Source: a virus (Duplodnaviria; Caudoviricetes). Taken from it: 55,059 nucleotides of DNA. The notes below the pieces were generated by a model that saw nothing but the letters and a program-made list of their open reading frames with translations, ran no database searches and was not told the DNA's origin. The position numbers and the translations under genes are program-made. Positions 41,977 to 55,059 of the stretch are shown here, one piece after another; within the stretch, counting starts at the first letter, position 1, and each line of letters opens with the position of its first letter. Where the stretch lies: the IMG/VR virus record IMGVR_UViG_3300032322_000635, positions 1-55,059 of that record; one strand, 5' to 3'.

Positions 41977-42011
41977 ACTACCTCCTTACTAAAGTCTCTT
42001 TGCGTGAGAGA

Positions 42012-42448: not shown

Positions 42449-42449
42449 A

Positions 42450-43277: not shown

Positions 43278-43533
43278 CTTTAAACTCCATATCTAGTTGA
43301 TCACTATCAGTGATGACATCATCAAACTCTGTATCTGTTGTGCCTCTACATATATGATGCATTGCATTCATTTGCACTTGGCCTTCATGCACATCTAATG
43401 CGCCGTCAAATATAAATCCACACCCTTTTAAAAAGAGTTCCATGTTCGCAATCACATCACTTAAGTCATCAGATTCAAACTCTAATTTATTTTTATAGCC
43501 GTCGTCTTTCATTTCTAATTTATACTTAACCAT
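43270..43533 (-). CDS. Acidic hypothetical protein
   Basis: ORF track; FLKGCGF motif. Confidence 0.6.
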   Translation of the reverse strand: MVKYKLEMKDDGYKNKLEFESDDLSDVIANMELFLKGCGFIFDGALDVHEGQVQMNAMHHICRGTTDTEFDDVITDSDQLDMEFKDD

Positions 43534-43542
43534 GATTATCCT

Positions 43543-44046
43543 TTATTTAAAGCGAGCGAATGAGCCGTGAAGATCAACTCTAGTTTTTTGTAAAAATTTA
43601 ATAGCAGATAGTTTGTCTTTAAATAATTTAACAATTGGAACATTGTCACGATAAATAGAAGCTCTGTAATAAATATAAACTTTGTTGTTTAACTTAACTT
43701 TTTGTATGCTCATGCCTTTGACGCCAGTTTTGTTATCTTTGTTTATACGCCTATTATGTTGATTTTGGCTTGGATTTGCTATGCGCAAATTTTTGATGTC
43801 ATTGTTTAATTTATTTCCATCAATGTGGTCAATCATTTTAGGAAGGTAGCCATGGTGGTACATCCAAATTACTCGATGGGCCATCGTTGTTCTGCCATTA
43901 ATAGACACTGCCAAATAACCAGCGCTATGCGGATGCTCAGCTTTGGCTCCCTTTTTCTTTCCATACTTTCCATCTTCTCTGTAAAACAAACTTCCATTTT
44001 GGTAATAAAACATCTCTTGCATTTTTTCTTGTGTTAATTGACTCAT
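43543..44046 (-). CDS. HNH homing endonuclease
   Basis: AHRVIW, IDHIDGNKLNNDIKNLR, NKTGVKG, terminal LHGSFA (AP2-like tail). Confidence 0.9.
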   Translation of the reverse strand: MSQLTQEKMQEMFYYQNGSLFYREDGKYGKKKGAKAEHPHSAGYLAVSINGRTTMAHRVIWMYHHGYLPKMIDHIDGNKLNNDIKNLRIANPSQNQHNRRINKDNKTGVKGMSIQKVKLNNKVYIYYRASIYRDNVPIVKLFKDKLSAIKFLQKTRVDLHGSFARFK

Positions 44047-44055
44047 ATGTATCTC

Positions 44056-44724
44056 CTATCCCTCTCTTAAAAATCGATGTAATTCTTTTGAATAAAATTC
44101 AATCTTTGCAGCTTCTTGAACTGAGTCATCTTTAAGGCCAATACGTGTATTATATTTTTCAATATTGCCACGTAAGAATCCTATGTATTGCTCAGGTGGA
44201 AACTTAGCTCTAATGTAATCAAGCATCTCAATCCCGCCCTGAGTGTAGTGAGGTGGGTGATTGATCATGTCAGGTTTAGGTTTTTCTTCTCTATCCAATT
44301 CGGCATGCCTTTCTCTATGATGATATTTACAAAGCCATACAACTTCTAAAGGTTTGTTATAGTCTTCATGATGTCCAACTACATGTTCGGTAGTGCCACA
44401 CTTCTCACAAGGCTGCCTAACTAACTCACCTTTTTGGATTGCATAAGCAACCTTTTGATGGGCCGTCTTCTTTAATTTATTTTCTGCGAGCCAAAACTTT
44501 TTATGTGGAGCTACTTGTTTGAAGGAAAGTAATTTCTTACCTTCCCTCCGTTCTTTGTAGTACGTTGACTTGCATGATATACAATAACTTTCCACACCAT
44601 CCCTAGTAAGAACATTTTTATAGAACTCATCTACTGACTTCTCTATTTTGCATCTAGTGCAAAACTTTGTAGACGCTAGTTTAAATGGCAATGGATCTTT
44701 TGCGTTATCTGCAATATTTTCCAT
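44056..44724 (-). CDS. Zn-finger/HNH-like plus DUF3310 fusion protein
   Basis: CTRC...CISC; PCEKCG...HHEDYNKPLEVVWLCKYHH; DMINHPPHYTQGGIE...GNIEKY. Confidence 0.7.
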   Translation of the reverse strand: MENIADNAKDPLPFKLASTKFCTRCKIEKSVDEFYKNVLTRDGVESYCISCKSTYYKERREGKKLLSFKQVAPHKKFWLAENKLKKTAHQKVAYAIQKGELVRQPCEKCGTTEHVVGHHEDYNKPLEVVWLCKYHHRERHAELDREEKPKPDMINHPPHYTQGGIEMLDYIRAKFPPEQYIGFLRGNIEKYNTRIGLKDDSVQEAAKIEFYSKELHRFLREG

Positions 44725-44726
44725 AG

Positions 44727-45386
44727 TTAGAAAGGTAAATCACTTTCCATGTCATCAAAAGAAGCTCCTCCAACGGCAACCTCAGTAAAGCCATTATCAT
44801 AACTAGCCTTACCATGAATCTTTTCCCACTCAGGTGACAATCTAATTTTATCTTTAAGACCATCAGAAAATGATTCAAACAACTCCATATCAGCTTCATC
44901 AATTTCAAAGATTTTTAATTCATTATATCCATCAGGTAATCCTGCTTTTTTAATGTTAGCTGGGACTGGATTGATATTAAGAATGTTGGTGTATGTCTTA
45001 CCATTATTTTCAGATTGTCCGACAGTGATCATTGCCCATTGACCTAAAATGTTTTTTAATTCAAAACCATTCTTTTCAGACTCAGTAAAAGGTCTACCGC
45101 GCCAAGCTTCAAGGTCTTTACGCAACGCTGCCTTCTCAACCAAAAACGCAGAATAGTTTTTAGACATGGTCATTGGTTTGCCATCTGCGGTAGTAAGCGG
45201 ATTGCCCTCTGAATCTTCTGAATGCACCTCAAATTGAATCATGACTTTCTTAACGTGTTTAACGTTACCCATGTATTCTGATTTTTGAGTGCCTAGTTCA
45301 ATGATTCTATAACATCTAGCAAGATGCATGCCAGGTGGCACTGGTATAAAACTTGATGTACTGCTGTCTTTAACTACTAAACTCAT
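44727..45386 (-). CDS. Probable single-stranded DNA-binding protein
   Basis: OB-fold-type PGMHLARC..IIELGTQ; acidic C-terminus ending DDMESDLPF; same operon as the exonuclease. Confidence 0.65.
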   Translation of the reverse strand: MSLVVKDSSTSSFIPVPPGMHLARCYRIIELGTQKSEYMGNVKHVKKVMIQFEVHSEDSEGNPLTTADGKPMTMSKNYSAFLVEKAALRKDLEAWRGRPFTESEKNGFELKNILGQWAMITVGQSENNGKTYTNILNINPVPANIKKAGLPDGYNELKIFEIDEADMELFESFSDGLKDKIRLSPEWEKIHGKASYDNGFTEVAVGGASFDDMESDLPF

Positions 45387-45588
45387 TCTGTTCTCCTAGG
45401 TTTGTATTAAAAGTTACTTCTCTAAATTTACCGTCAGACAGCCCACACTCAAATCGAATGTGATTCCAATCGTCAGGCGTTGCTACTCCATTTATGGCCC
45501 GACCCATAGCCTGTATCAGCTTTTCTTGTCGTTCCAACATGTCCTGGTGTTGCGCAGCTTGTTGCCAATCATCTTCATAGGAGACCAT
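45370..45588 (-). CDS. Hypothetical protein
   Basis: Start moved to ATG 45588 behind a GGAGGT RBS. Confidence 0.6.
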   Translation of the reverse strand: MVSYEDDWQQAAQHQDMLERQEKLIQAMGRAINGVATPDDWNHIRFECGLSDGKFREVTFNTNLGEQNEFSS

Positions 45589-45817
45589 ATATACCTCCAA
45601 AGACAATTGCTATTAACCCTAAAACCGAGATAGCCACAATTAAAAAATCAACTGTTATTGGCTTGCTTGGTTTATACAATCTTTTCTCTAGCAACACTTG
45701 TTGCAATGCGTCCGCATCTTTACTAGCTCTAGTTTCAAAAGGCTCTTGATATAACAAACCTATTTGAACGCCTGCCTTTGTCATGTACGGCGGTGTTTTT
45801 CTGTAATGCTGTTTCAT
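45575..45817 (-). CDS. Hypothetical protein with C-terminal TM helix; first gene of the leftward operon
   Basis: GAGGAG RBS; hydrophobic C-terminus FLIVAISVLGLIAIVFGGIYGLL. Confidence 0.65.
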   Translation of the reverse strand: MKQHYRKTPPYMTKAGVQIGLLYQEPFETRASKDADALQQVLLEKRLYKPSKPITVDFLIVAISVLGLIAIVFGGIYGLL

Positions 45818-45850
45818 TTGTATCTCCTCTTTTAAGTGAATTGCCCAAAC

Positions 45851-45913
45851 ACATTAACATGTTTAAATAAAAAATACAATACCATTGCAATTAATTAAGA
45901 TTCGTGTAATAGT
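45851..45913. promoter_or_regulatory. Divergent sigma70-like promoter pair
   Basis: Minus strand TTGTAT-N17-TAATGT with extended TG (45879-45851); plus strand TTGCAA-N17-AATAGT with TG (45885-45913); AT-rich strand-switch region. Confidence 0.55.
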
Positions 45914-45940
45914 CACGTAAACATTCTTAAGGAGGATGGT

Positions 45941-46165
45941 ATGATTTTATTAACGCAAACAGAACGGCAATATTTAAAAATGGCTTCAAGCAATATGACG
46001 CCTGAAAATTTTACTAGCTTGTCAGACGAAGCTAGAGATGATCACACGCGAAATCTTGACAAGGTTATTTATGGGCTTATGGAAGAAAACCCAAACGCTT
46101 TTACGGAAGAAGCATTGGCTGACCATAAGAAGAAAAACAGATTAGTTTATAAACTAGGATCATAA
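45941..46165 (+). CDS. Hypothetical protein
   Basis: AAGGAGG RBS; first gene of the rightward operon. Confidence 0.65.
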   Translation: MILLTQTERQYLKMASSNMTPENFTSLSDEARDDHTRNLDKVIYGLMEENPNAFTEEALADHKKKNRLVYKLGS

Positions 46166-46166
46166 C

Positions 46167-46391
46167 ATGAATTTATACGAGTACTTTCAAGACAAACCTC
46201 GAGGATTTAAAACACAGTTTGCAAAGAAGGTAGGCATTACTAAGACCTGGCTGTCACAAATTATTAGTGGCAGACAAATTCCTAGTTCACCTTTATGCAA
46301 TGCGATAGAAAGATTTACGGACGGCCATGTAAAGAGAGAGGAACTTAGGCCTGACATTTTTCTTAGGCCTGACATTTTTGGAGATACATAA
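46167..46391 (+). CDS. Cro/YdaS-like HTH transcriptional regulator
   Basis: FAKKVGITKTWLSQIISGRQIPS HTH; IERFTDGHV.REELRPD C-terminus typical of YdaS/Cro. Confidence 0.85.
   Translation: MNLYEYFQDKPRGFKTQFAKKVGITKTWLSQIISGRQIPSSPLCNAIERFTDGHVKREELRPDIFLRPDIFGDT
46344..46379 (+). repeat. Perfect 18-bp tandem duplication
   Basis: CTTAGGCCTGACATTTTT x2, encoding LRPDIF twice. Confidence 0.95.
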
Positions 46392-46392
46392 T

Positions 46393-47070
46393 ATGCATTG
46401 GTACAAATTTAATATAGCTGATTACAAAAAAGATACAGACCACCTAACTATGTTGGAGCATGGCGCTTATCTTAAATTACTTAACAAATATTATTTAAAC
46501 GAAGAACCACTTCCATTAGAAGAAACACAACTTTTTAGACTTATAGGAGTAAGAGGCGATGATGAAGCGACTGCGATTAGAAGTGTACTACAAGATTTTT
46601 TCACTAAGAGTGAGATGGGTTTTATTCACAAACGATGTGATGTTGTTATTGAAGAGTATAAAGAGAAGTCTTACAAAGCTAGTCAATCTGCTAAAGCAAA
46701 GTGGGATAAGATAAATAATGCGAATGCTATGCGAACGCAGTGCGATGGCAATGCTAACTCAGTAACTCAAGAACTAAAGAACTCATCTATAGGCGCGTCT
46801 TTAAGATTCGAAGAATTTTGGTCTGTATGGCCTCGAGGTGAAAGAAAGATGGCTAAGGCAGCTCTCAAGAAAAAATGGGAGAAGGAAGGCCTGGATGAAA
46901 TTGCCGATAAGATCATATCGCATGTTGAGAAGATGAAATTAACTGATCAGTGGACCCGAGGCTTTGAGCCCATGCCAGCAACCTACATTAATCAAAAGCG
47001 TTATTTGGACGCTGATGATGTTGACACACAAGCTGGAGTTCCTCTGAACATGTTAAGGAAAGCAATATGA
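46393..47070 (+). CDS. DUF1376/YdaU-like replication initiator (lambda O analogue)
   Basis: MHWYKFNIADYKKDT.HL...EHGAY..LL..YY..E.PL; C-terminal FEEFWSVWPR...PATYINQKRY; internal iterons. Confidence 0.8.
   Translation: MHWYKFNIADYKKDTDHLTMLEHGAYLKLLNKYYLNEEPLPLEETQLFRLIGVRGDDEATAIRSVLQDFFTKSEMGFIHKRCDVVIEEYKEKSYKASQSAKAKWDKINNANAMRTQCDGNANSVTQELKNSSIGASLRFEEFWSVWPRGERKMAKAALKKKWEKEGLDEIADKIISHVEKMKLTDQWTRGFEPMPATYINQKRYLDADDVDTQAGVPLNMLRKAI
46719..46762. repeat. Putative replication-origin iterons (four 11-bp units)
   Basis: TGCGAATGCTA / TGCGAACGCAG / TGCGATGGCAA / TGCTAACTCAG in the linker of the initiator gene. Confidence 0.6.
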
Positions 47071-47426
47071 TTGGATTAGATAAGTTACTAGACGTTAGGA
47101 AGGATGGCGTGACGCCCGAGGTAGTTAACATATGGGTAGGCAATGATAAAGATCCACATTACGAGGGCGTATGGCACAAGTACTCAGACACTCAAAAGTA
47201 CCCATGCATTCTTATCGAGCCTGAAGACAATTTAGATGCGCTTGATTTTAGATCAATGTTTGGCATGACAATATTTATCAGAGGTGACATGCCTGACAAG
47301 ATGTTAAAGGTTTATGAAAAGATTGAGAAGTGCAAGCCAGGACGAGTATTTATATTTAACCACGGACAAGTTGACATTGAAATTTTAGATAGCGAGGGAT
47401 TATTAAGTGGAATTATTGCAGCCTAA
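47067..47426 (+). CDS. Hypothetical replication-module protein
   Basis: ORF track; overlaps both initiator and helicase. Confidence 0.65.
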   Translation: MIGLDKLLDVRKDGVTPEVVNIWVGNDKDPHYEGVWHKYSDTQKYPCILIEPEDNLDALDFRSMFGMTIFIRGDMPDKMLKVYEKIEKCKPGRVFIFNHGQVDIEILDSEGLLSGIIAA

Positions 47427-48357
47427 TGATATAGATTTTGAGAAGTACTTACATGAGACAGAACAGTATCAGAAGGTTCGTCCAGTAAGTGTATTCATTG
47501 ATGAGCTTGAAGAGAATATTAAAAACCCTAAGCCTGATCTTAAATGTTTTATGCCTTGGGCCAATGCTGAACACTCATTTCATTTTAGGCCAGGAGAGGT
47601 AACAGTTTATGCGGGCAGTAACGGTGGAGGTAAGTCGCTTATTACAGGCCAGGTTGCATTGAGCTTAATTAAGCAGAATCAACGCGTATGTATAGCATCG
47701 TTCGAGATGAAACCAATGAAGACTATCCAGCGCATGATGCGTCAGTTTTCTGGAGAAGATTTAGAGAACCCTCTTATCAAAGATAGAGCTAATCATTTTA
47801 AATCAGTGATTGAAAGATTTAAGAAATTTACAAGTGAAAAGCTTTGGCTATACGATCAGCAAGGAACGATGACGCCCGAACAGATTATTGCGGTGACTAG
47901 ATACTGTGCTATTGAATTAAAAATGCAGCATATGTTTATCGACTCACTTATGAAATGTATGAAGGCAGAAGATGATTACAATTCACAGAAGTCTTTTGTC
48001 GATGAACTTACAGCAATCGCACGCGACCACAATATGCATATACATTTAGTTCATCATATTCGTAAGTTAGGACATCAAGATTTGATGCCATCTAAAACAG
48101 ATTTGAAAGGTAGCGGAGCTATTGCAGATCAAGTGGATAACGTCTTACTTATGCACCGTAACAAAAAGAAAGAGCATGACATAAGCCAAGGAAAAGAAGT
48201 ATCTGATGATGTACCTGACGCTTATCTTATGTGCGAGAAGCAACGTAACGGTGAGCATGAAGATTGGTTCAAGCTTTGGTATCACAATGAGAGTCAACAA
48301 TTTTTAGATAGTGCAGGCGCATTTGTTATGGCGTTTGAGGATGGCGGTAAGTTTTAG
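47407..48357 (+). CDS. DnaB/SF4-like replicative helicase
   Basis: RPGEVTVYAGSNGGGKS (Walker A), SFEM, FIDSL (Walker B), LVHHIRK, DLKGSGAIADQVDN, EKQRNG. Confidence 0.9.
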   Translation: MELLQPNDIDFEKYLHETEQYQKVRPVSVFIDELEENIKNPKPDLKCFMPWANAEHSFHFRPGEVTVYAGSNGGGKSLITGQVALSLIKQNQRVCIASFEMKPMKTIQRMMRQFSGEDLENPLIKDRANHFKSVIERFKKFTSEKLWLYDQQGTMTPEQIIAVTRYCAIELKMQHMFIDSLMKCMKAEDDYNSQKSFVDELTAIARDHNMHIHLVHHIRKLGHQDLMPSKTDLKGSGAIADQVDNVLLMHRNKKKEHDISQGKEVSDDVPDAYLMCEKQRNGEHEDWFKLWYHNESQQFLDSAGAFVMAFEDGGKF

Positions 48358-48563
48358 TGGTAGATAAAGGCAATTGCAGCAAAGAGTTTTTGTATCAATG
48401 CTTAGTGCGCGATGTAATTCAAAAGCGCCTTAAGGATAGATCAGTAGCTCATAACTTTTTAAACGGATGGGAAGATAAGCATCCAAAATCAACATTAAGG
48501 GAGGATGTTATGAATCAATGGCAAAAAGGCAATAGAGGAAGGAAGGGTGAATGGTATGAGTGA
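48357..48563 (+). CDS. Hypothetical protein
   Basis: ORF track; YQCLVR...QW.KGNRG..GEW motif. Confidence 0.6.
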   Translation: MVDKGNCSKEFLYQCLVRDVIQKRLKDRSVAHNFLNGWEDKHPKSTLREDVMNQWQKGNRGRKGEWYE

Positions 48564-48834
48564 TCCAAATAAAAAACTAGTGGAAGCGTTGGAAGCAATG
48601 TGTGAAATCTATGAGCCTGACGACGAGAGTCATGAGAATGATGCAGTAGCTGGTTATGCTATGAACATTCTTGAGACAGTCAAGAAGGAAGTAGAGCTAT
48701 ACAAAGCTAAACCATTGCCTGAAGACGATGTATGGCTATTAGCGCAGGAAATTAATTTGCATGATCCAATGTATCCAATAAATTTTGCAAGAGCTGTAGA
48801 ACGTAAACATGGCATAGGAGATAACAATGGCTGA
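48547..48834 (+). CDS. Hypothetical protein
   Basis: ORF track; FARAVERKHGIG motif. Confidence 0.6.
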   Translation: MNGMSDPNKKLVEALEAMCEIYEPDDESHENDAVAGYAMNILETVKKEVELYKAKPLPEDDVWLLAQEINLHDPMYPINFARAVERKHGIGDNNG

Positions 48835-49087
48835 AGAAAAGAAAAGTAATTTTGCAGACGTATTCTTAGGAAAGACAATTCCACATAACCCTGACTTCAT
48901 TTCAGTTGAAGAGCATAACAGGGAAATGTCTCAATCGTTTGAAGACTTCTTGGCAGTTGTTGATGAAGCTATTGCTAAGGAACGTGAAGCATGCGGAAAG
49001 ATTTGCACTGATAACCCTGAGATGAATGGAAAAGATTTAGCTGACATCATTCTTAGACGCAAGCCAAAGATTGAAGTCCATGATTGA
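48827..49087 (+). CDS. Hypothetical protein
   Basis: AGGAG RBS; EREAC..IC motif. Confidence 0.6.
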   Translation: MAEEKKSNFADVFLGKTIPHNPDFISVEEHNREMSQSFEDFLAVVDEAIAKEREACGKICTDNPEMNGKDLADIILRRKPKIEVHD

Positions 49088-49433
49088 GCTTGAGCTGCCG
49101 TTCCCTCCCTCAGTGAATACTTATTGGCGCAACTTCCAAGGGCGCATGTTGATTAGTAAAAAGGGTCGCGAGTATCGCAAGACAGTGGCCGATATAGTTT
49201 TACTTAATAGAGCTGCAAAACATTATCAGGGCAAAATTAAGATGACTATTGAGGCCTGGCGTCCCGATGAAAGGAAAAGAGACTTAGATAATTTATTGAA
49301 GGCACCACTTGACGCATTGACCCATGCTGGCGTATATTTAGATGATCATTTAATAGTACATTTAACAATATACTGGGCAGATGATAAAGGCGGTAAATTA
49401 AACGTTAAAATAGAGGAGATACAAAATGTATAA
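49080..49433 (+). CDS. rusA: RusA-like Holliday junction resolvase
   Basis: LPFPPSVNTYWR, RDLDNLLKA..DAL..AG...DD. Confidence 0.9.
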   Translation: MIELELPFPPSVNTYWRNFQGRMLISKKGREYRKTVADIVLLNRAAKHYQGKIKMTIEAWRPDERKRDLDNLLKAPLDALTHAGVYLDDHLIVHLTIYWADDKGGKLNVKIEEIQNV

Positions 49434-49758
49434 AGGAAGAGACCCACACAAAGCAGTAGACTGGATGATAGAGAATGCTGAAAACATTTCTAAAGCCAAA
49501 GGAACATTAACGCAGCTCGAAGAGTATACAAAATCTTTAAGAGCTATTCTTATGAAGCAAAGCATGGAGACGTCATTAGGCGCCCAGGAACGTGAAGCTT
49601 TAGCACATCCACAATATATAGACCATCTCAAGTCAGTTGCAATAGCTGTAGAAGAATACGAAAAGCTTCGTCACTTCTATTCAGTTGCACAAACTGTTAT
49701 TGATGTATGGCGTACAGAACAATCAAATTTAAGAGCTGAGGGAAGGGTAACAATATGA
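49426..49758 (+). CDS. Conserved coiled-coil phage protein
   Basis: AGGAG RBS; QEREALAHPQY and IDVWRTEQ motifs. Confidence 0.65.
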   Translation: MYKGRDPHKAVDWMIENAENISKAKGTLTQLEEYTKSLRAILMKQSMETSLGAQEREALAHPQYIDHLKSVAIAVEEYEKLRHFYSVAQTVIDVWRTEQSNLRAEGRVTI

Positions 49759-50018
49759 TAAAAAAATCATTTAAAGTAAAAGAAAAAGTAGATATAGATT
49801 TTACAGACGTCTTGTTATTTATATTGGTTATTCCAGTATACGTAGGATTGGTAGACGCTTTTGTTTATGCAGTTTCAGGACGCACACTTTCAGATATGGA
49901 ATGGACCTGGCAGCGCGTATTGCTTGTAATCTTCTTTTTAGTTTTTCGTATTATGGCAGTTAAAGGACGCGAACAAGCTAGGGCTAAAAAAGAAGGAGAG
50001 ATTAAAGATGTCAACTAA
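49755..50018 (+). CDS. Two-TM membrane protein
   Basis: Two hydrophobic stretches. Confidence 0.6.
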   Translation: MIKKSFKVKEKVDIDFTDVLLFILVIPVYVGLVDAFVYAVSGRTLSDMEWTWQRVLLVIFFLVFRIMAVKGREQARAKKEGEIKDVN

Positions 50019-50235
50019 TCAAGAACCAATGAATAATGTTGAGTTGCGTGAATACTACACAACACACGCTCTTAAAAATAAAATTAACATTGATTACGAT
50101 AAGTTTGTAATGTTGGTTAGAAGTATTGAAGAGCATCATGACATTTATCAAGACTTAGCAGCACAAGATGCATTGGAAAACATTGAGCATCAAATTATAG
50201 CCAGAGCATGTCGCAATGGCGTTTGTGAGGATTAA
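50008..50235 (+). CDS. Hypothetical protein
   Basis: AAGGAG RBS; ends ACRNGVCED. Confidence 0.6.
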   Translation: MSTNQEPMNNVELREYYTTHALKNKINIDYDKFVMLVRSIEEHHDIYQDLAAQDALENIEHQIIARACRNGVCED

Positions 50236-50238
50236 ATC

Positions 50239-50421
50239 ATGGCAGAATTTGTAGCAGTATTCTTGTTGTACACATTTAAAGCAGCATGGTATTGGTGGTT
50301 TGCATTTGCAGCCTTAATTAGCTTGGAAGCTTGGGCCGAGTATCGTAAAATTATGAGAACTTGGAAGCTGAGAGAAAAAGCGCAGCCTAAAAAAACTTGG
50401 AAAGAAACTAAACATGATTAA
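50239..50421 (+). CDS. Small membrane protein
   Basis: GAGGA RBS; hydrophobic N-terminal half. Confidence 0.55.
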   Translation: MAEFVAVFLLYTFKAAWYWWFAFAALISLEAWAEYRKIMRTWKLREKAQPKKTWKETKHD

Positions 50422-50623
50422 GTTAACTAACATGTCACAGGGCCACAGACATAACACGCTTCTTCTAAACCCAAGGCACATACTATCTGTGTTTGAGATA
50501 GAACTTGATGAAGAGAAGCAAACTTCTGTGTATACAGTAACACAGCAATCATGGAATGTTAAAGAGTCGCTTGATGAAATTTATACGATGATAAATAAAG
50601 GAAACTATGATGACGCTTCTTAA
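50414..50623 (+). CDS. FlbD/SwrD-like small protein
   Basis: MIKLT...LLNP.HI..V....T.V......VKES.DEI pattern. Confidence 0.55.
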   Translation: MIKLTNMSQGHRHNTLLLNPRHILSVFEIELDEEKQTSVYTVTQQSWNVKESLDEIYTMINKGNYDDAS

Positions 50624-50699
50624 AATTATTTTATTCGCATTGGTTGTTTTAATTTTTTGCGCTGTAGTAAATTCTATAAACTAAAGTCTTTAACTAGTT

Positions 50700-50990
50700 T
50701 TGACTAAAGACGAAAAGAAACATCTATCAAATCTTGCAGATTTAGGCTGCATACTTTGTGCAGTCCAGGGCAACCCAGGAACCCCAGCAGAGATTCATCA
50801 TCCGCGCAAGGGAACTGGGATGTCTATGAAGGCAAGTCACTTTGACGCAATCCCATTATGTGTATATCATCATAGAAGCTCAGAAGGTTTACATGGCCTA
50901 GGCACCAAAGGATTTAAGCGCGTGTACAGTCTTGATGAAGCAGAGTTGTTAATATTAACTAAGAAAGCATTGGAGCTAAATCATGGATGA
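50700..50990 (+). CDS. Ref-like (RecA-dependent) HNH-type nuclease
   Basis: LGCILC, PAEIHH, IPLC..HH, HG.G motifs; TTG start. Confidence 0.65.
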   Translation: MTKDEKKHLSNLADLGCILCAVQGNPGTPAEIHHPRKGTGMSMKASHFDAIPLCVYHHRSSEGLHGLGTKGFKRVYSLDEAELLILTKKALELNHG

Positions 50991-51180
50991 AGAAGTTAAA
51001 AAAGCAGATTTATTTTTGGATAGTAATGGCGATATGATCTTCGTTGATGAAGATGGTAAAGAATATTTACTGACACCAATACGTGAAGAACAAGAGCTAG
51101 CAGAGCTAGAAGAAAGTCTCCGCAAAAAAGAAGCCTTTAGCAGTTACATTGATATTATCTCTTCAAGAACTCTTCACTAG
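50983..51180 (+). CDS. Acidic hypothetical protein
   Basis: ORF track; GGAG RBS. Confidence 0.55.
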   Translation: MDEEVKKADLFLDSNGDMIFVDEDGKEYLLTPIREEQELAELEESLRKKEAFSSYIDIISSRTLH

Positions 51181-51273
51181 TGACAACGTTTGACATTTTT
51201 TTGTTAGTCATCTTCTTGACGTTTTTTTTAATAGGCTTCGTATCGGGCTACGTTATTCATAAGGAGTTTGGCG

Positions 51274-51516
51274 ATGGCGAGAGTACTGATTAATCATTAT
51301 CGCAACGTAGCTATCGAATGCAGCCGCAAAGATAAGTGGTCAGTCCTAGTCGTAGGATGGGCGCCAGTAAGAAGAGTTAAGGTGCTTAACAGCGAAGTCG
51401 ACAAAGAGTGGAAGACGTTTGACTACGATTTAAATAGCGCGATTGATCGTATGGTTAACAGTGCGATAGAAGATACGGCCGCCGCAGAGCTCAAAAAGAT
51501 TAGGCAGCATTCATGA
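51274..51516 (+). CDS. Hypothetical protein
   Basis: AAGGAG RBS 7 nt before ATG 51274. Confidence 0.6.
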   Translation: MARVLINHYRNVAIECSRKDKWSVLVVGWAPVRRVKVLNSEVDKEWKTFDYDLNSAIDRMVNSAIEDTAAAELKKIRQHS

Positions 51517-51595
51517 TTTTACTGATGGTTTTGTCTGTATAAACAGATAATCTTATTTTTACAGGCAAATTGCTTGGATAACAAAGGATAATATT

Positions 51596-51667
51596 ATGTG
51601 GACAACTCCAGCTGCAACAGAAATGAGATTTGGCTTCGAAGTAACTATGTACGTAATGAACAAGTAA
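51596..51667 (+). CDS. pqqA: Pyrroloquinoline quinone precursor peptide PqqA (23 aa)
   Basis: Manual translation MWTTPAATEMRFGFEVTMYVMNK: W.xP...RFGFEV.xY consensus with the E-x3-Y pair; AAAGGA RBS; not in the ORF track. Confidence 0.95.
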   Translation: MWTTPAATEMRFGFEVTMYVMNK

Positions 51668-51712
51668 TTGATATTTACAGGCTCATAGCTAGTCTATGTG
51701 ACTGTGTTTAAG

Positions 51713-51733
51713 GGGAGCTTCGGCTCCCTTTTT
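51713..51733 (+). terminator. Intrinsic terminator after pqqA
   Basis: GGGAGC-TTCG-GCTCCC followed by TTTTT. Confidence 0.85.
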
Positions 51734-51828
51734 ATTGCCTATTTTTTAAGCAATTATCCCTACACCCTATTTTCCCAAAAAGCAACATATTTATATAATA
51801 TTTTATTAAATTATTTACCTCCAGGGTA

Positions 51829-51857
51829 TTGTAATCCTTACTTGTTTAACCTAATAT
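51829..51857 (+). promoter_or_regulatory. Sigma70-like promoter for the small-ORF block
   Basis: TTGTAA-N17-TAATAT with a very AT-rich upstream tract. Confidence 0.6.
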
Positions 51858-51908
51858 TACACATAGCAACACATTATTAACTTAAATACAAAGAAAGAGA
51901 AGATACAT

Positions 51909-52193
51909 ATGAATACATTAGTAAACTATAAAGTACCAGCAGTAGATACTTTAGGTGACCTCCTAGCTCGTATATCTGAATTACAAGCTGAAGCTGACCT
52001 TATCAAAGACGCTTTAAAAGCTGAAGGCCCAGGCGCTTACGAAGGCTCACAATTCAAAGCCAACGTAATCGTTTCAAACCGTTCAAACATCGACTTCAAA
52101 CAAGTATTTGCAGAATGCTCAGTACCAGCTGAGGTTATTGCCCGCAATACTAAGGTTCAAGAAGTTGTTTCAGTCAAACTAACATCAAGATAA
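51909..52193 (+). CDS. Hypothetical protein (first of the early-type small-ORF block)
   Basis: ORF track; VDTLGDLLARISEL coiled coil. Confidence 0.7.
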   Translation: MNTLVNYKVPAVDTLGDLLARISELQAEADLIKDALKAEGPGAYEGSQFKANVIVSNRSNIDFKQVFAECSVPAEVIARNTKVQEVVSVKLTSR

Positions 52194-52203
52194 GGGGAAG
52201 ATC

Positions 52204-52386
52204 ATGACAGCAAAAAGATACACAGTAACATTGTTTGGATTAGGTGGTGCGCTTGCTACAGTTGACTCAGAACATCCTTGGCATCCAACTAACTGGTCCA
52301 CAGAGCGTGGTGACCTTGTGCAAGTGTACGATCGTTTAGAAGGCGATTTTCTTCCTGACTATTACATTCAAAAGGACGGTGAATAA
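52204..52386 (+). CDS. Hypothetical protein
   Basis: AAGGGG RBS. Confidence 0.6.
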   Translation: MTAKRYTVTLFGLGGALATVDSEHPWHPTNWSTERGDLVQVYDRLEGDFLPDYYIQKDGE

Positions 52387-52679
52387 TGACTACATTAAAA
52401 CTACAACTTATGCAAATCTTAAACAAACTACCATCACGCAAACACGCGATGGTTTTTGTTGACGCTTTAAAAGAAGCTGAGCACAACATCAAAAAAGAAG
52501 GCATCGTAGATCCAACGCTCAATGAAGTAATGTCAGAAGTTGTTGGCGTGCTTGATGGCTGGATAGAATCAATTAATTACAGATACGCTGACCCAACTGA
52601 CAGCCACAAAAAAGGTAAGTTTGACGACGCAATCGGCGAAACTTTTAACATTTTTCAAAGCCTTGGCTTTAACTATTAA
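52386..52679 (+). CDS. Hypothetical protein
   Basis: TAATG coupling; AAGGA RBS. Confidence 0.6.
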   Translation: MTTLKLQLMQILNKLPSRKHAMVFVDALKEAEHNIKKEGIVDPTLNEVMSEVVGVLDGWIESINYRYADPTDSHKKGKFDDAIGETFNIFQSLGFNY

Positions 52680-52689
52680 GGAGCTGCAC

Positions 52690-52959
52690 ATGAAAACATT
52701 TTCAAGATCACAATTAATGAAGGCCATGGGTAAAAAGTACCCTGGCGTATGGACTAAAGAAAGCGAGCTCTTCAACGGATCTAAGGGCGCTATATGGACT
52801 GGCGAAGGTGCAGAAATGCCTGACGATGACGAGGCCTTTAATCATTATCGCCGCGACTTTGAGATGGGTGTCCATCCTGAGTTGTACGAATACCTCAACG
52901 CACGTGGATGGCACTGCGAGTGGCACGACGGCGGCACAATCTTAATCTATAAAAACTAA
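52690..52959 (+). CDS. Hypothetical protein
   Basis: Start moved to ATG 52690 behind AAGGAG; GW..EW.D.GT C-terminal motif. Confidence 0.65.
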   Translation: MKTFSRSQLMKAMGKKYPGVWTKESELFNGSKGAIWTGEGAEMPDDDEAFNHYRRDFEMGVHPELYEYLNARGWHCEWHDGGTILIYKN

Positions 52960-52969
52960 GGAGATCAAC

Positions 52970-53164
52970 ATGCAATATTATTATGCGATTACAGACAGCG
53001 ACATAATTGACCTAGGCATGCACAGTTCGCCAAGCAAGGCTGATTACTTAGCCGTTGATACATACAACATACATTGCGCTCGTTTTGGTTATGTTGTTGT
53101 TAGTCACAAACAATTAGAAGCAATTAAAAATAAACTTGAAACCCGTGGCGTTGGAATTTACTAA
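52970..53164 (+). CDS. Hypothetical protein
   Basis: AAGGAG RBS. Confidence 0.6.
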   Translation: MQYYYAITDSDIIDLGMHSSPSKADYLAVDTYNIHCARFGYVVVSHKQLEAIKNKLETRGVGIY

Positions 53165-53174
53165 GGAGATTAAT

Positions 53175-53345
53175 ATGAATCAACAAAAATATAATTGGAT
53201 TGCAATAACGATTGAGACGGCGGTTGAGAAGGGTATCATGTTAGATGCTAAAGCAATATCAAATGTGTTTAACGTGACGCTCAAAGAAGCTAACGATATT
53301 ATCTGTGACTATTTTGAATACAAATTAAGCGAGGGTACAAAATGA
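53175..53345 (+). CDS. Hypothetical protein
   Basis: Start moved to ATG 53175 behind AAGGAG. Confidence 0.6.
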   Translation: MNQQKYNWIAITIETAVEKGIMLDAKAISNVFNVTLKEANDIICDYFEYKLSEGTK

Positions 53346-53590
53346 TTTCAACTAACGATATTAAAAAAGGCATGCCAATCAAACTTAAAAGCGGTTGGTG
53401 TGCAGTGATGATGGATAACAAACGCGGCAACGTGCGCATGGCTGAAGTAGACGGCATATTCAAAGAGATCGGCAGCATCTATGCATCCGAGATCATAGAA
53501 GCGTTTGTGGATGGTCAATGGCAATATGTAACGCACTCAATGCGCAAGGGCCACGCTCAAATACCTAACTTTTTATACGGAGGATTTTAA
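53342..53590 (+). CDS. Hypothetical protein (SH3-like beta fold possible)
   Basis: DIKKG..I.L..GW...MMDNKRGN.R..EV.G...E.GS.Y pattern. Confidence 0.6.
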   Translation: MISTNDIKKGMPIKLKSGWCAVMMDNKRGNVRMAEVDGIFKEIGSIYASEIIEAFVDGQWQYVTHSMRKGHAQIPNFLYGGF

Positions 53591-53591
53591 A

Positions 53592-53816
53592 ATGAATCAA
53601 GACGACTTAGATGTACTAAAGCAATACATAGACGCACGTGCTAGGAACGGTTACTCAGACGAAGAGTTGTTTGAGATGCAAGCATCGTTCGGGCCCGACG
53701 AAGAAGTGGTTGACATCTTCACTGGCCAAACTATTGACCTGCATCGAAAGAATATGGTTGATGCATTGGTTGACATGGGTAAATTTGAAATGATCTTTAT
53801 TAAAGACAAGTCATAG
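53592..53816 (+). CDS. Hypothetical protein
   Basis: GGAGGA RBS; EMQASFG...VVDIFTG motif. Confidence 0.6.
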   Translation: MNQDDLDVLKQYIDARARNGYSDEELFEMQASFGPDEEVVDIFTGQTIDLHRKNMVDALVDMGKFEMIFIKDKS

Positions 53817-53953
53817 TGGATTCACTTGCTTTTTGGGGTAGTTGCGTTATATTTATATTCTTCGGTGGCGCTTTAATTCTAATGATCATCATTTCAATAA
53901 TACAAGTTGAACTCACAGAATGGCGCCGTCGAAAACTTAAAAAAAGAAAATGA
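53816..53953 (+). CDS. Small single-TM protein (45 aa)
   Basis: Manual translation; GTG overlaps the upstream stop; hydrophobic helix then RRRKLKKRK. Confidence 0.45.
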   Translation: MDSLAFWGSCVIFIFFGGALILMIIISIIQVELTEWRRRKLKKRK

Positions 53954-54132
53954 TTCCATTCAAATACATTGTGTACATAGATGGCATGGCAATAAGAAAG
54001 TTTCGCGATAAAAACGCAGCTCAATATTTCTGCGATGGCAATGCGAACGCATCCCTCGAAAGAATCCCGCAAGAAAAAATTCCCCCGAAAGAAAAACTCA
54101 ATACAAACGATTATCCTGAATGCTTATTCTAA
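53950..54132 (+). CDS. Hypothetical protein
   Basis: ORF track; contains the second iteron pair. Confidence 0.55.
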   Translation: MIPFKYIVYIDGMAIRKFRDKNAAQYFCDGNANASLERIPQEKIPPKEKLNTNDYPECLF

Positions 54133-54140
54133 TAAATCAC

Positions 54141-54169
54141 TAGACATAACTCATTAGTTGCTTTAGCTT
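54141..54169 (+). promoter_or_regulatory. Candidate promoter for the terS/late operon
   Basis: TAGACA-N17-TAGCTT upstream of the AAGGA RBS of terS. Confidence 0.4.
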
Positions 54170-54196
54170 TACTGAATTCTATTAAGGACTGAAAAT

Positions 54197-54745
54197 ATGT
54201 CTGAATCAAGTAAAGAACAAGTAAGTGCATCCTCTACAGTAGAGAGTAACAACTCATCTCCTACCCAATCCAAACATGCAGGTGGTAGACCTACCAAATA
54301 CAATCTTAAGATTGCTCTCGAGATCTGCGATAGGCTATCAGACGGTGAGTCTCTTGCAACTATTTGCAAGGACGAGCGTATGCCGAAGAAGACGGCTGTG
54401 TATGAGTGGCTGCTGCGCCACCAAGAGTTTACGGACATGTACGCGCGCGCGAGGGAAGACCAAGCTGACTCCATGGCTGATTCGATTGTGGCCATAGCTG
54501 ACGAGAAGCCAACGCTGCTGTACGACGATAAAGGTAACGGCAAGGTGGATAACGCATTCGTGGCCTGGCAGAAGAACCGCATAGACGCACGCAAGTGGAC
54601 GGCTGCTAAGTTGAAGCCGCGCAAATACTCTGATCGCATTGCTCACGAAGGTGTGGCCGATGGTGATCCAATTAAGTTAGACGTATCTATCTTTGACGCA
54701 CTCGTACAGAACTTAGAGTTGAAGCGTCAGAACAAAGACGAATGA
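54197..54745 (+). CDS. terS: Terminase small subunit (Sf6/P22-like)
   Basis: GRPTKY...ICDRLSDGESL..IC....MP...VYEWL...F..MYARARE.QAD, RIDARKW.AAKLKPRKY; upstream of terL. Confidence 0.9.
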   Translation: MSESSKEQVSASSTVESNNSSPTQSKHAGGRPTKYNLKIALEICDRLSDGESLATICKDERMPKKTAVYEWLLRHQEFTDMYARAREDQADSMADSIVAIADEKPTLLYDDKGNGKVDNAFVAWQKNRIDARKWTAAKLKPRKYSDRIAHEGVADGDPIKLDVSIFDALVQNLELKRQNKDE

Positions 54746-54894
54746 TCCCCGAGAAAGAAGAGATCGAGTCATACGAGCTAGATGATGGACAGCTTGATGA
54801 GAAGCAGCACGCAAAGATAAAGAAGCTTGTAAGCTACGAGCTAGATAAGTCGACAGGCGAGGTCGTAAGGTTGTTTGATGACGAGCGTAGCTGA
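54742..54894 (+). CDS. Small acidic hypothetical protein (50 aa) between terS and terL
   Basis: Manual translation; ATGA overlap with the terS stop. Confidence 0.45.
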   Translation: MIPEKEEIESYELDDGQLDEKQHAKIKKLVSYELDKSTGEVVRLFDDERS

Positions 54895-55059
54895 GTTACT
54901 TAAAGACGATGATGTAAAGCGTAAGTTCTTAGCGTTACCCAAAGCACAACAGCTTGGATATGCGTGGAGAACAAAGTGGTTAAGCCAGGCGCATGATCAT
55001 CAGATATTGCCTCCAGGTGATTGGGCCATATGGTTATTGTTAGGCGGCCGCGGAGCTGG
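54878..55059 (+). CDS. terL: Terminase large subunit (5' part, continues into the start of the window)
   Basis: ATG 54878 opens MTSVAELLKDDDVKRKFLALPKAQQLGYAW...HQILPPGDW, in frame with the ORF at the start of the window. Confidence 0.9.
   Translation, partial: MTSVAELLKDDDVKRKFLALPKAQQLGYAWRTKWLSQAHDHQILPPGDWAIWLLLGGRGA
54937..55059. repeat. Terminal direct repeat, copy 2
   Basis: Identical to 1-123. Confidence 0.97.

What the first reader, a model, noticed from the sequence alone, without database searches (positions are those of the whole stretch)
51517..51735. Hidden phage-encoded pqqA (PQQ cofactor precursor) in a self-contained expression cassette
Seen: a 23-codon ORF below the track cutoff, MWTTPAATEMRFGFEVTMYVMNK, with its own RBS (AAAGGA), a candidate promoter (TTGTCT-N17-TATTTT from 51531, overlapping an inverted repeat TCTGT-ATAA-ACAGA) and a C(UUCG)G terminator. 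No other pqq gene is present. Known: PqqA is the ribosomal peptide whose Glu and Tyr (E-x3-Y) are cross-linked by PqqE/PqqD to make PQQ, the cofactor of MxaF/XoxF methanol dehydrogenases, and it is consumed stoichiometrically. From memory the sequence resembles Methylophilaceae PqqA. Inference: the phage supplies only the substrate of a host RiPP pathway to sustain methanol oxidation during infection, and the host is a methylotroph such as Methylopumilus or Methylotenera. Phage pqqA may already have been noted in freshwater viromes, so novelty needs a literature check.
Basis: partly seen in the sequence, partly recalled or inferred. Interest (0 to 1): 0.85.

Follow-up and report, generated by a model that had tools for sequence, protein, structure and literature searches.

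The report
Phage-borne PQQ precursor gene pqqA
A complete 55-kb phage of methanol-eating freshwater bacteria carries a tiny unannotated 23-codon gene for the peptide that its host turns into the cofactor PQQ, and the same overlooked gene turns up in many other phages of these bacteria.

Summary
Window 51596-51667 (+) encodes a 23-aa peptide that scores well above the curated PqqA cut-offs (Pfam 40.3 bits against 21.1; TIGR02107 38.8 against 20). It is identical to PqqA copies in 27 Methylophilaceae loci, one of which heads a canonical pqqABCDE operon. The window is a complete phage genome with direct terminal repeats, no pqqB-E and no integrase.

Coutinho et al. 2020 reported PqqA in one Lake Baikal T4-like virus predicted to infect Methylophilaceae.

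What I did not find in print:
- The same gene lies unannotated in nine GenBank records of cultured Methylophilales or Methylophilaceae phages: P19250A, MEP301, MEP401, MEP402, Venkman and four Melnitz records.
- It occurs in at least 120 IMG/VR contigs, always without pqqB-E.
- It is under purifying selection (pN/pS about 0.27).
- In a sister lineage it sits just behind the capsid-gene terminator.

The host is placed in the family Methylophilaceae; the genus is unresolved. The terminator is convincing. The promoter is weak on its own (8 of 12) but lies in a conserved upstream block, and the inverted repeat is not conserved. No expression data exist, so the function as a precursor-supplying auxiliary gene remains an inference (about 0.7).

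The parts
51511..51522 (+). Upstream box TCATGATTTTAC, at the left edge of the block that travels with pqqA. It overlaps the TGA stop of the upstream ORF 51268-51516.
   Evidence: The strict motif ATG[AG]TTTT lies at -100..-60 in 44 of 122 viral cassettes, 0 of 125 host cassettes and 0 control windows. The related core TCATG[AG] lies at -125..-60 in 26 of 51 host Methylophilaceae copies (2.1 expected) and 31 of 122 viral copies (3.6 expected). Function unknown.
51531..51559 (+). Candidate sigma-70-type promoter TTGTCT-N17-TATTTT (8 of 12). The inverted repeat TCTGT-ATAA-ACAGA (51534-51547) lies inside it.
   Evidence: Read. The consensus scan did not call it. The homologous site in L137 is TTGCCT-N17-TATATT, 9 of 12. 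The block is conserved in L137, L148, L145, L230, L218 and L130. The inverted repeat is not conserved in L137.
51565..51595 (+). Leader with the Shine-Dalgarno AAAGGA (51583-51588), 7 nt before the ATG.
   Evidence: The leader ACAGGCAAATTGCTTGGAT is shared with L137, L148, L005 and L174. An SD-like motif lies at -16..-4 in 125 of 125 viral and 123 of 127 host copies, against 3 of 125 and 5 of 127 in a control window.
51596..51667 (+). pqqA, 23 codons plus stop. The peptide has the Glu15-x3-Tyr19 pair that is cross-linked to make PQQ.
   Evidence: PF08042 40.3 bits (cut-off 21.1) and TIGR02107 38.8 bits (cut-off 20). It is identical to 29 genome ORFs and 23 IMG/VR ORFs and to the ORF of phage P19250A. 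pN/pS is 0.27.
51710..51736 (+). Intrinsic-terminator-like hairpin (9-bp stem, UUCG loop) with a T-rich tail, 43 nt after the stop codon.
   Evidence: Fold; called by my scan. A sub-threshold Rfam match to the 3' end of the CrcZ model (positions 339-366 of 398) covers 51707-51734. Analogous hairpins follow 57 of 123 viral and 98 of 122 host pqqA copies.

Best explanation
The ORF is a genuine, translated pqqA that was captured from a Methylophilaceae host and is kept by the phage as a very small auxiliary metabolic gene.

Proposed mechanism (inferred, not shown): during infection the phage makes the 23-aa precursor, which is identical to the host's own. The host's PqqD chaperone and PqqE radical-SAM enzyme cross-link Glu15 to Tyr19. 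Host peptidases, PqqB and PqqC then finish PQQ, which loads the periplasmic methanol dehydrogenases (XoxF/MxaF).

Why only pqqA? The hosts themselves raise its dosage with 3-12 copies against a single pqqBCDE set.

In the window the gene ends a run of small same-strand genes that follows the replication genes. It has a strong ribosome-binding site and a terminator. It is transcribed either from a weak promoter of its own, inside a conserved upstream block, or by read-through from the upstream genes.
For: Identity:
- Both curated PqqA models are passed over their full length, and E-x3-Y is present.
- The same peptide heads a verified pqqABCDE operon in L009: PqqB 405 bits, PqqC 330, PqqD 92.5, PqqE 509, all over their cut-offs.

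Phage context:
- The record is a complete virus with direct terminal repeats (an exact 123-bp repeat).
- It has terminase, portal, capsid, tail and replication genes.
- It has no pqqB-E and no integrase or resolvase.

Selection:
- 118 viral 23-codon ORFs (107 distinct DNA sequences) give pS 0.50, pN 0.13 and pN/pS 0.27 on the 13 codons not fixed by my search pattern.
- 52 ORFs encode the identical peptide yet differ from the window by 6-12 nt, all synonymous.
- An SD-like motif precedes 125 of 125 viral copies.

Recurrence:
- Of 8 kb of the window, only the stretch around pqqA (window 51560-51674) matches GenBank phages. That is 6 records, 5 of them cultured Methylophilales or Methylophilaceae phages.
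- tblastn adds 4 Melnitz records.
- 7 of 7 phage ORFs tested (one per phage: six plus one Melnitz) pass TIGR02107.
108 of those 120 ORFs are at least 19/23 identical to the window's peptide.
- 0 of 126 viral loci have PqqB-E, against 46 of 120 genome loci that have PqqB.
- 85 of 126 viral loci share at least one phage protein with the window.

Dosage logic:
- Methylophilaceae carry 3-12 pqqA copies and one pqqBCDE set (PMC4109929, passages). I found the same: 3, 4, 3, 12 and 6 copies with one true PqqE each in five genomes, and 24 orphan against 15 clustered copies among 39 that could be judged.
- In a related methylotroph, stand-alone pqqA copies are among the most highly expressed (PMC9851590, passages).
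Against: - There is no expression or biochemical evidence. No RNA run holds the stretch.
- PQQ is a reusable, non-covalently bound cofactor (established knowledge). It is therefore unproven that extra precursor matters within one latent period, especially in hosts that already have 3-12 copies.
- The nearest TerL relative in GenBank (MW202545, 65% identity) is not among the 12 records with a pqqA-like match, so the gene is dispensable in that lineage.
- Other named phages of this host group (MEP431-434, HIM624-A, phiMB624-A, Venkman EXVC038S, MG-MTP1, RSA-MFP1) were not among the matches. I could not tell whether they are in the collection.
- The pN/pS figure rests on 13 codons, on pairs that are not independent, and on ORFs chosen by a pattern for the core.
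- 41 of 126 'viral' loci share no protein with the window, and some could be misfiled host fragments.
- The promoter matches only 8 of 12.
Confidence: 0.7

Rival explanations
1. The gene is the same and does the same job, but it is not a self-contained cassette. pqqA is simply the last cistron of the upstream same-strand gene run (49755-51516) and is transcribed by read-through; the 'promoter' is a chance match.
For: - The upstream ORFs are tightly packed on the + strand, and no + strand terminator was called between them and pqqA.
- The promoter matches 8 of 12 and was not called.
- The inverted repeat is not conserved.
Against: - The roughly 85-nt upstream block accompanies pqqA in other genomic contexts (L137, L148, L145, L230).
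- In 15 of 16 capsid-adjacent loci a terminator-like hairpin separates pqqA from the gene before it.
- In MEP301 and Venkman pqqA lies antisense to both neighbours, so it must have its own promoter there.
Confidence: 0.35
2. The stretch is a remnant of an attachment or recombination site. The phage keeps DNA homologous to the host's multi-copy pqqA for integration or recombination, not for the peptide.
For: - The homology to host genomes is short, about 80-105 nt at 84-94% identity.
- Hosts offer 3-12 target copies.
- Similarity in metagenome contigs stops at the edges of the ORF.
Against: - The complete genome has no tyrosine or serine recombinase, and the controls for those searches worked.
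- The whole ORF plus its SD is kept, not a 3' part.
- None of the 52 ORFs that encode the identical peptide is identical in DNA to the window's ORF (6-12 synonymous differences each). The constraint is on the protein, pN/pS 0.27.
- T4-like Melnitz myophages (Kyanoviridae) carry it too.
Confidence: 0.04
3. The gene is a neutral passenger: a recently captured piece of host DNA with no role for the phage.
For: It is very small and cheap to carry, and the nearest TerL relative lacks it.
Against: - It is present in at least four unrelated phage groups: Zobellviridae MEP401/402, Kyanoviridae Melnitz, the P19250A/Venkman type, and the window's own type.
- It is intact with an SD in 125 of 125 viral copies.
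- Synonymous change is near saturation while the protein is conserved.
- It occupies a recurrent position behind the capsid gene in 16 of 19 loci.
Confidence: 0.06
4. The peptide is made, but it serves the phage in some way other than raising PQQ. For example, it might saturate PqqD/PqqE, alter a pqq-linked regulatory circuit, or supply PQQ for a purpose other than methanol oxidation.
For: - Nothing in the data fixes the physiological outcome.
- A phage-specific upstream box (44 of 122 viral against 0 of 125 host cassettes) suggests regulation that differs from the host copies.
Against: - The viral peptides are the same variants as the host's; the two commonest are shared. There is no sign of a dominant-negative change.
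- The simplest outcome of making more of an identical substrate is more product.
Confidence: 0.1

Closest known systems
Chromosomal PqqA of Methylophilaceae (Methylotenera, Ca. Methylopumilus, Methylophilus), including their stand-alone 'orphan' copies
   Same: - The peptide is identical in 27 Methylophilaceae loci.
- The SD, the 23-codon length and the E-x3-Y pair are the same.
- A terminator-like hairpin follows most copies (98 of 122).
- Many host copies are also solitary (24 of 39; 3-12 copies per genome, PMC4109929).
   Different: - It lies in a phage genome between phage genes.
- DNA identity to host copies is only about 87-94% and stops at the SD and the stop codon.
- The upstream block is phage-specific: ATG[AG]TTTT in 44 of 122 viral against 0 of 125 host cassettes.
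PqqA in the Lake Baikal viral population VP_266 (Coutinho et al. 2020, Microbiome, PMC7678222)
   Same: A virus-encoded PqqA in a virus predicted to infect Methylophilaceae, interpreted as an auxiliary gene that boosts methanol oxidation (passages read).
   Different: - VP_266 is described as T4-like and as also encoding methanol dehydrogenase. The window phage is a 55-kb genome with direct terminal repeats and an unrelated terminase, and pqqA is its only pqq gene.
- I did not search the window specifically for a methanol dehydrogenase gene. The 30 larger ORFs that I scanned showed none.
- I could not compare the sequences, because the paper's supplements are closed.
Unannotated pqqA ORFs in cultured phages P19250A, MEP301, MEP401, MEP402, Venkman and Melnitz
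   Same: - They are 23-24-aa ORFs at 73-100% identity to the window's peptide, and the seven tested pass TIGR02107.
- They are solitary and preceded by an SD.
- P19250A and MEP301 also carry the upstream ATGATTTTA box.
   Different: - They belong to different phage families and sit at different genomic positions.
- The GenBank records have either no feature or an opposite-strand 'hypothetical protein' at the site.
- The main texts of four papers on these phages never name a phage pqq gene: 0 occurrences of 'pqq' in three of them, and only a growth-medium ingredient in the Melnitz paper.
Cyanophage psbA-type auxiliary metabolic genes (established knowledge, recalled, not tested here)
   Same: The phage carries a copy of the fast-consumed component of the host's energy-generating machinery, presumably to keep energy flowing after host gene expression declines.
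   Different: psbA encodes a structural protein subunit. Here the product is a consumable RiPP precursor that needs four or more host enzymes to become useful, and the gene is only 72 nt long.

Membership tests
PqqA (PF08042 / TIGR02107) | Scores above the curated cut-off of the family models over their full length | tested here: met
   PF08042: 40.3 bits against 21.1, positions 1-19 of 19. TIGR02107 (equivalog): 38.8 bits against 20, positions 1-21 of 21.
PqqA (PF08042 / TIGR02107) | Conserved Glu-x-x-x-Tyr pair that becomes PQQ | tested here: met
   E15-V-T-M-Y19 in the translation.
PqqA (PF08042 / TIGR02107) | The same peptide serves a pqqBCDE system | tested here: met
   The identical peptide heads pqqABCDE in locus L009, and PqqB, C, D and E there all score over their NCBIfam cut-offs.
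PqqA (PF08042 / TIGR02107) | pqqB-E in the same genome | tested here: not met
   None in the complete phage genome. For an auxiliary gene the host is expected to supply them; five candidate host genomes each have one true PqqE.
PqqA (PF08042 / TIGR02107) | Converted to PQQ by PqqD/PqqE and the later enzymes | not testable with these tools
   This needs biochemistry or genetics. The peptide is too short (23 aa) for the complex-prediction tool, which asks for chains of 30 residues or more.
Phage auxiliary metabolic gene | Host-like metabolic gene inside a bona fide phage genome, flanked by phage genes | tested here: met
   Complete record with direct terminal repeats. Helicase at 47407-48357 and a RecA-dependent nuclease family protein at 50700-50990 lie upstream; terminase at 71-1384 lies across the genome ends.
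Phage auxiliary metabolic gene | Kept by selection in phage lineages | tested here: met
   pN/pS 0.27 on unconstrained codons; 6-12 synonymous-only differences among ORFs with the identical peptide.
Phage auxiliary metabolic gene | Expressed during infection and changes host metabolism | not testable with these tools
   No run on record as RNA holds the stretch.
Moron (independent transcription unit inserted between phage genes) | Own terminator | tested here: met
   Hairpin plus T-run at 51710-51736.
Moron (independent transcription unit inserted between phage genes) | Own promoter | tested here: inconclusive
   An 8-of-12 match that the scan did not call. Against that, the upstream block is conserved across contexts, and pqqA is bracketed by terminator-like hairpins in related loci (15 of 16 before it, 11 of 16 after it).
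Moron (independent transcription unit inserted between phage genes) | Different insertion sites in related phages | tested here: met
   Directly behind the capsid gene in 16 of 19 loci with a window-type capsid gene. Upstream of terL in the window and in L141.
attP / integration-site remnant | A recombinase encoded by the phage | tested here: not met
   No PF00589 or PF00239 match in the complete genome; the controls rang in 14 and 13 of 14 genomes.

The most novel reading that the evidence does not exclude
pqqA may be the signature auxiliary gene of phages that infect Methylophilaceae. On this reading it is kept independently in at least four unrelated phage groups, including the cultured model phages in which nobody annotated it. 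It moves as a moron of about 160 nt with a phage-specific upstream box, often parked just behind the capsid-gene terminator. It would show that the supply of precursor peptide, rather than any enzyme, is the step of PQQ-dependent methanol oxidation that phages must prop up. That would be a case of viruses feeding only the substrate into a host RiPP cofactor pathway.
Probability: 0.5. Interest if true: 0.7.

Novelty: new member of a known kind. Interest (0 to 1): 0.55.

Why it matters
Methylophilaceae (LD28/Methylopumilus, OM43, Methylotenera) are major methanol and C1 oxidisers in lakes and coastal seas.

- **What it suggests about the pathway.** A phage gene that supplies only the consumable precursor of their key cofactor points to precursor supply as a bottleneck of methylotrophy during infection.
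- **Use as a host marker.** The gene is a cheap sequence marker for assigning uncultured phages to this host family.
- **It can be tested now.** The same gene is present, unannotated, in phages that are already in culture with their hosts, so the auxiliary-gene hypothesis can be tested directly.
- **A caution for gene calling.** ORFs below the usual length cut-offs hide real auxiliary genes in deposited phage genomes.

Tried and rejected
- **Word-index protein search and related-locus search.** Both turned the 23-aa query away as too short. I instead used tools whose stated limits accept it: family HMM scans, tblastn in search_dna_similar, and degenerate DNA pattern scans.
- The query was 60 bases over the limit. 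I shortened it and re-sent it to the same tool.
- **PqqC HMM search of the window.** It had no working control (nothing rang anywhere). I replaced it with tblastn using a verified PqqC.
- **Expression.** No RNA holder is listed, so nothing can be said either way.
- **Contigs of four DNA runs laid on 50500-52500.** Summed contig depth rises from about 0-50 to 194-861 over 51572-51705, with loose ends at 51590-51599 and 51668-51670. I read this only as many different contigs sharing the ORF. Contig depth is not copy number and says nothing about expression.
- **Rfam.** Nothing reached a gathering score. The only hit with E < 0.01 is a match of the terminator hairpin to the 3' end of the CrcZ model.
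- **Host genus.** The best DNA match of the ORF is Ca. Methylopumilus universalis (93% over 88 nt), and 29 of the top 30 listed matches lie in genomes of 1.8 Mb or less. But the window's GC content (40.6%) matches the Methylotenera loci (40%) and not the Methylopumilus loci (34-37%). The genus is left open. In one search only 2 candidates per genome were scored and 414 matches were not listed, so CRISPR spacers or other short matches could have been missed.
- **Prophage origin of host orphan copies.** No genome locus shares a protein with the window.
- **Terminator strand control.** The reverse-complement strand also gave hairpin-plus-T-run calls in 31 of 123 viral and 65 of 122 host cassettes. 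Many of these hairpins are therefore two-sided, and the counts do not prove strand-specific termination.
- **'All cultured Methylophilales phages carry it'.** Rejected as a claim. NCBI taxonomy lists further named phages that were not among the matches.
- **Complex prediction.** Not attempted, because the peptide is under 30 residues.
- **Supplements.** Table S1 of PMC7678222 and the annotation tables of the OM43 phage papers might list pqqA; I could not see them.
- **'Not in print'.** This rests on searches of the held library only. The P19250A paper (a subscription journal, recalled) was not available.
Full report
**1. The observation**

Its parts are at these places:
- AAAGGA at 51583-51588, 7 nt before the ATG.
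- The hexamers TTGTCT and TATTTT at 51531-51536 and 51554-51559, 17 nt apart.
- The small inverted repeat at 51534-51547.
- A hairpin with a 9-bp stem and a UUCG loop at 51710-51731, followed by a T-rich tail. In one search the 91-nt region folds at -24.7 kcal/mol, z = -2.64.

The consensus scan called neither the promoter (it matches 8 of 12; the threshold is 9) nor the hairpin. A scan of my own, which tries shorter stems so that the T-run stays in the tail, does call the hairpin.

**2. What it is**

The peptide passes both curated PqqA models over their whole length. PF08042 gives 40.3 bits against a cut-off of 21.1. TIGR02107, an equivalog model, gives 38.8 bits against 20. It has the Glu15-x3-Tyr19 pair.

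The window is one complete viral record of 55,059 bp with direct terminal repeats; the repeat is 123 bp and exact. Its genes include:
- Large terminase, portal, virion and tail proteins, a lytic transglycosylase, an exonuclease, a primosomal protein and a DnaB-like helicase.
- A major capsid protein at 11286-12200, PF25209 at 49.5 bits.
- A RecA-dependent nuclease family protein at 50700-50990.

It has no PqqB, C, D or E. The PqqC search lacked a working control, so I repeated all four by tblastn with proteins from a verified operon; the best E-value was 0.33. It has no tyrosine or serine recombinase and no tRNA gene.

**3. Whose PqqA it is**

I scanned one genome per prokaryotic species for DNA that could encode the core RFGFEVTMY. 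They hold 130 ORFs.
- 29 ORFs are identical to the window's peptide: 27 in Methylophilaceae (14 labelled Methylotenera, 1 Ca. Methylopumilus, 1 Methylophilus, the rest named only to family) and 2 in unclassified Pseudomonadota MAGs.
- 19 ORFs are 21-22/23 identical: 18 Methylophilaceae and 1 unclassified.
- Of the 69 most distant ORFs, only 3 are Methylophilaceae. Among those with a family label, most are gammaproteobacterial methylotrophs (16 Methylococcaceae, 9 Piscirickettsiaceae); 29 carry no family label.

One identical copy (L009) heads an operon whose PqqB, C, D and E all pass their NCBIfam cut-offs.

I also searched 301 Methylophilaceae genomes with 20 kb of the window (35060-55059). 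284 had a match, and all 150 listed matches fall at window 51570-51688, that is on pqqA alone. 414 further matches were not listed, and only two candidates per genome were scored.

The family-level host call is therefore well supported, though it rests on pqqA itself. The genus is open. The best DNA match is Ca. Methylopumilus universalis (93% over 88 nt), and 29 of the top 30 listed matches lie in genomes of 1.8 Mb or less. The window's GC content (40.6%), however, equals that of the Methylotenera loci and exceeds that of the Methylopumilus loci, which are 34-37%.

**4. Other phages**

This was the most informative result.
- blastn of window 47100-55059 against 50,697 GenBank phage records found 6 records, and in each the match is confined to window 51560-51674. 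They are P19250A (host: LD28-clade strain IMCC19250), MEP301, MEP401, MEP402, Venkman and one uncultured spring-water podovirus.
- tblastn with the peptide found 12 records. These are the same six, four T4-like Melnitz records, and two 'Acinetobacter phage MD-2021a' contigs. The Acinetobacter contig I inspected is really bacterial chromosome with ppk and pqqBCDE.
- In every true phage record the ORF is unannotated. There is either no feature or an opposite-strand hypothetical protein.
- 7 of 7 phage ORFs tested (one per phage) pass TIGR02107 at 34-40.9 bits. P19250A's peptide is identical to the window's.
- These phages are not relatives of the window phage. Its terminase is nearest to an uncultured record (65%) and then to Caulobacter phages (43.5%); its helicase is nearest to ES18-like Salmonella phages (37%).
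- The same pattern scan of IMG/VR again stopped at 120 contigs. 108 of those 120 ORFs are at least 19/23 identical to the window's peptide, and 85 of 126 viral loci share at least one other protein with the window.
- 0 of 126 viral loci have PqqB-E at E <= 1e-5, while 46 of 120 genome loci have PqqB.

I cannot say that all phages of this host group carry the gene. NCBI taxonomy lists further named phages that were not among the matches, and I could not establish whether they are in the collection. The nearest TerL relative, MW202545, is also absent from the matches.

**5. Is it functional in phages?**

- On the 13 codons that my pattern did not fix, 107 distinct viral ORF sequences give pS 0.50, pN 0.13 and pN/pS 0.27.
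- 52 ORFs encode the identical peptide but differ from the window by 6-12 nt, all synonymous.
- An SD-like motif lies at -16..-4 in 125 of 125 viral and 123 of 127 host copies, against 3 and 5 in a control window.

This argues for a translated, selected peptide. It argues against a DNA-level role such as an attachment site, which the absence of any recombinase also disfavours.

**6. Anatomy and mobility**

Homology boundaries:
- Homology to host copies (about 90%) starts about 13 nt before the ATG and stops at the stop codon.
- A subset of viral copies (L137, L148, L145, L230, L218, L130) shares a further 85-100 nt upstream with the window. L005 and L174 share only about 36 nt of leader.
- The longer shared block begins at ...ATGATTTTACTGATGG and includes the -35-like hexamer. 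In L137 the promoter-like site scores 9 of 12. Upstream of about 51510 the sequences are unrelated.

The upstream box:
- ATG[AG]TTTT lies at -100..-60 in 44 of 122 viral cassettes, including P19250A and MEP301. It is in 0 of 125 host cassettes and 0 control windows.
- Host copies carry a related palindromic TTCATGAA box further upstream. TCATG[AG] lies at -125..-60 in 26 of 51 host Methylophilaceae copies against 2.1 expected.
- I cannot explain this element. A regulator site or an UP-like element just upstream of the -35 is possible.

Terminators: hairpins with a T-run follow 57 of 123 viral and 98 of 122 host copies, against 1 and 6 in shuffles. The opposite strand also scores in 31 and 65 cases.

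Position in the genome:
- In 16 of 19 viral loci with a homologue of the window's capsid gene, pqqA lies 49-585 nt (mostly 136-187) downstream on the same strand.
- In those 16 loci a terminator-like hairpin lies between the two genes in 15, and another follows pqqA in 11.
- The window and its closest relative L141 (capsid 68% identical, 17 shared ORFs) instead have pqqA upstream of terL.
- In MEP301 and Venkman it lies antisense to both neighbours.

Together this is the behaviour of a moron: a small, separately bracketed unit that moves between phage genomes. For the window itself, read-through from the upstream same-strand genes remains a live alternative to a promoter of its own.

**7. How it most likely works**

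Shown:
- A selected, SD-preceded pqqA identical to the host's, in a phage without maturation genes.
- Candidate hosts with one PqqE and 3-12 pqqA copies each (PMC4109929, passages).
- In the 1.3-Mb Ca. Methylopumilus genome the three pqqA copies lie at 416, 457 and 1186 kb and pqqE at 578 kb, so all three are unlinked to it.

Established knowledge: PqqE with PqqD cross-links Glu and Tyr within PqqA, and each PQQ consumes one peptide. I saw Barr et al. 2016 and Zhu and Klinman 2020 only as titles in the reference lists.

Inferred: the phage tops up the consumable precursor so that host enzymes keep making PQQ for methanol dehydrogenase while the phage replicates. I put this at about 0.7. The main doubts are the lack of any expression data and the fact that PQQ is a reusable cofactor.

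**8. Novelty**

- The kind is known. Coutinho et al. 2020 describe PqqA in the Baikal population VP_266, a T4-like virus predicted to infect Methylophilaceae, and give the same interpretation (passages).
- A 2026 paper lists viral pqqA, pqqE and pqqD among phosphate-solubilising genes (passages).
- The main texts of the papers on MEP401/402, MEP301 and Venkman contain 'pqq' 0 times. The Melnitz paper names PQQ only as a medium ingredient.
- Seven library searches found no other report. Supplements were closed, and the P19250A paper was not available.

So the window's gene is a new member of a known kind. The following appear not to be in the searched literature: its breadth across unrelated phages of this host family, its absence from the annotation of cultured isolates, its strict solitude, and its usual place behind the capsid terminator.

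**9. Verdict**

The function is plausible but untested. Interest is moderate (0.55), mainly because the hypothesis can now be tested in phage-host pairs that are already in culture.

Noticed in passing
Viral loci L139, L151, L153, L161, L164, L168, L184, L193, L197, L199, L203, L214, L215, L219, L229, L245; window 11286-12200 for comparison: In 16 of 19 pqqA-bearing viral loci that have a homologue of the window's major capsid gene, pqqA lies 49-585 nt downstream of it on the same strand. A terminator-like hairpin lies between the two genes in 15 of those 16 loci, and another follows pqqA in 11 of 16. The window itself has no pqqA behind its capsid gene.
   Followed up: partly
window 51511-51522; L002, L003 and many IMG/VR loci, about 75-95 nt upstream of pqqA: A phage-specific upstream box ATG[AG]TTTT is in 44 of 122 viral and 0 of 125 host cassettes. 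Methylophilaceae host copies carry a related palindromic TTCATGAA box further upstream (26 of 51 against 2.1 expected). Function unknown.
   Followed up: partly
window 51772-51799: The best promoter-like site of the region (TTCCCA-16-TATAAT, 10 of 12) lies in the AT-rich gap just after the pqqA terminator and before ORF 51909-52193. It looks like the start of the next transcription unit.
   Followed up: no
L249 (CAKLQF020000010.1, 'Acinetobacter phage MD-2021a'): This 144-kb record, filed as a phage, carries ppk, pqqB, pqqC, pqqD and a radical-SAM pqqE-like gene next to an unannotated pqqA. It looks like bacterial chromosome.
   Followed up: partly
G001 (Ca. Methylopumilus universalis, reached through L068): All three pqqA copies (416, 457 and 1186 kb) are far from the single pqqE (578 kb). 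In this streamlined genome, therefore, no precursor gene is linked to pqqE.
   Followed up: no
window 44056-44724 (-): This ORF combines endonuclease VII/HNH-like and nucleotide-kinase-like PHROG matches. It is the window protein most widely shared among pqqA-bearing viral loci, in 27 of 126.
   Followed up: no
window 50500-52500 in runs X2, X4, X6, X12: Contigs 85-99% like the flanks of pqqA occur in runs of three other studies labelled freshwater or lake water (X4, X6, X12). One X4 contig bridges the upstream gene into pqqA (51253-51610). Relatives of this phage therefore seem widespread in lakes.
   Followed up: partly
IMG/VR loci among L128-L247 with more distant peptides: 12 of 120 viral ORFs are less like the window's peptide (under 19/23, or a different length). 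Several are of the MKWETP... or ...YIANR type seen in gammaproteobacterial and other methylotroph genomes. This suggests that phages of other methylotroph groups also carry pqqA.
   Followed up: no
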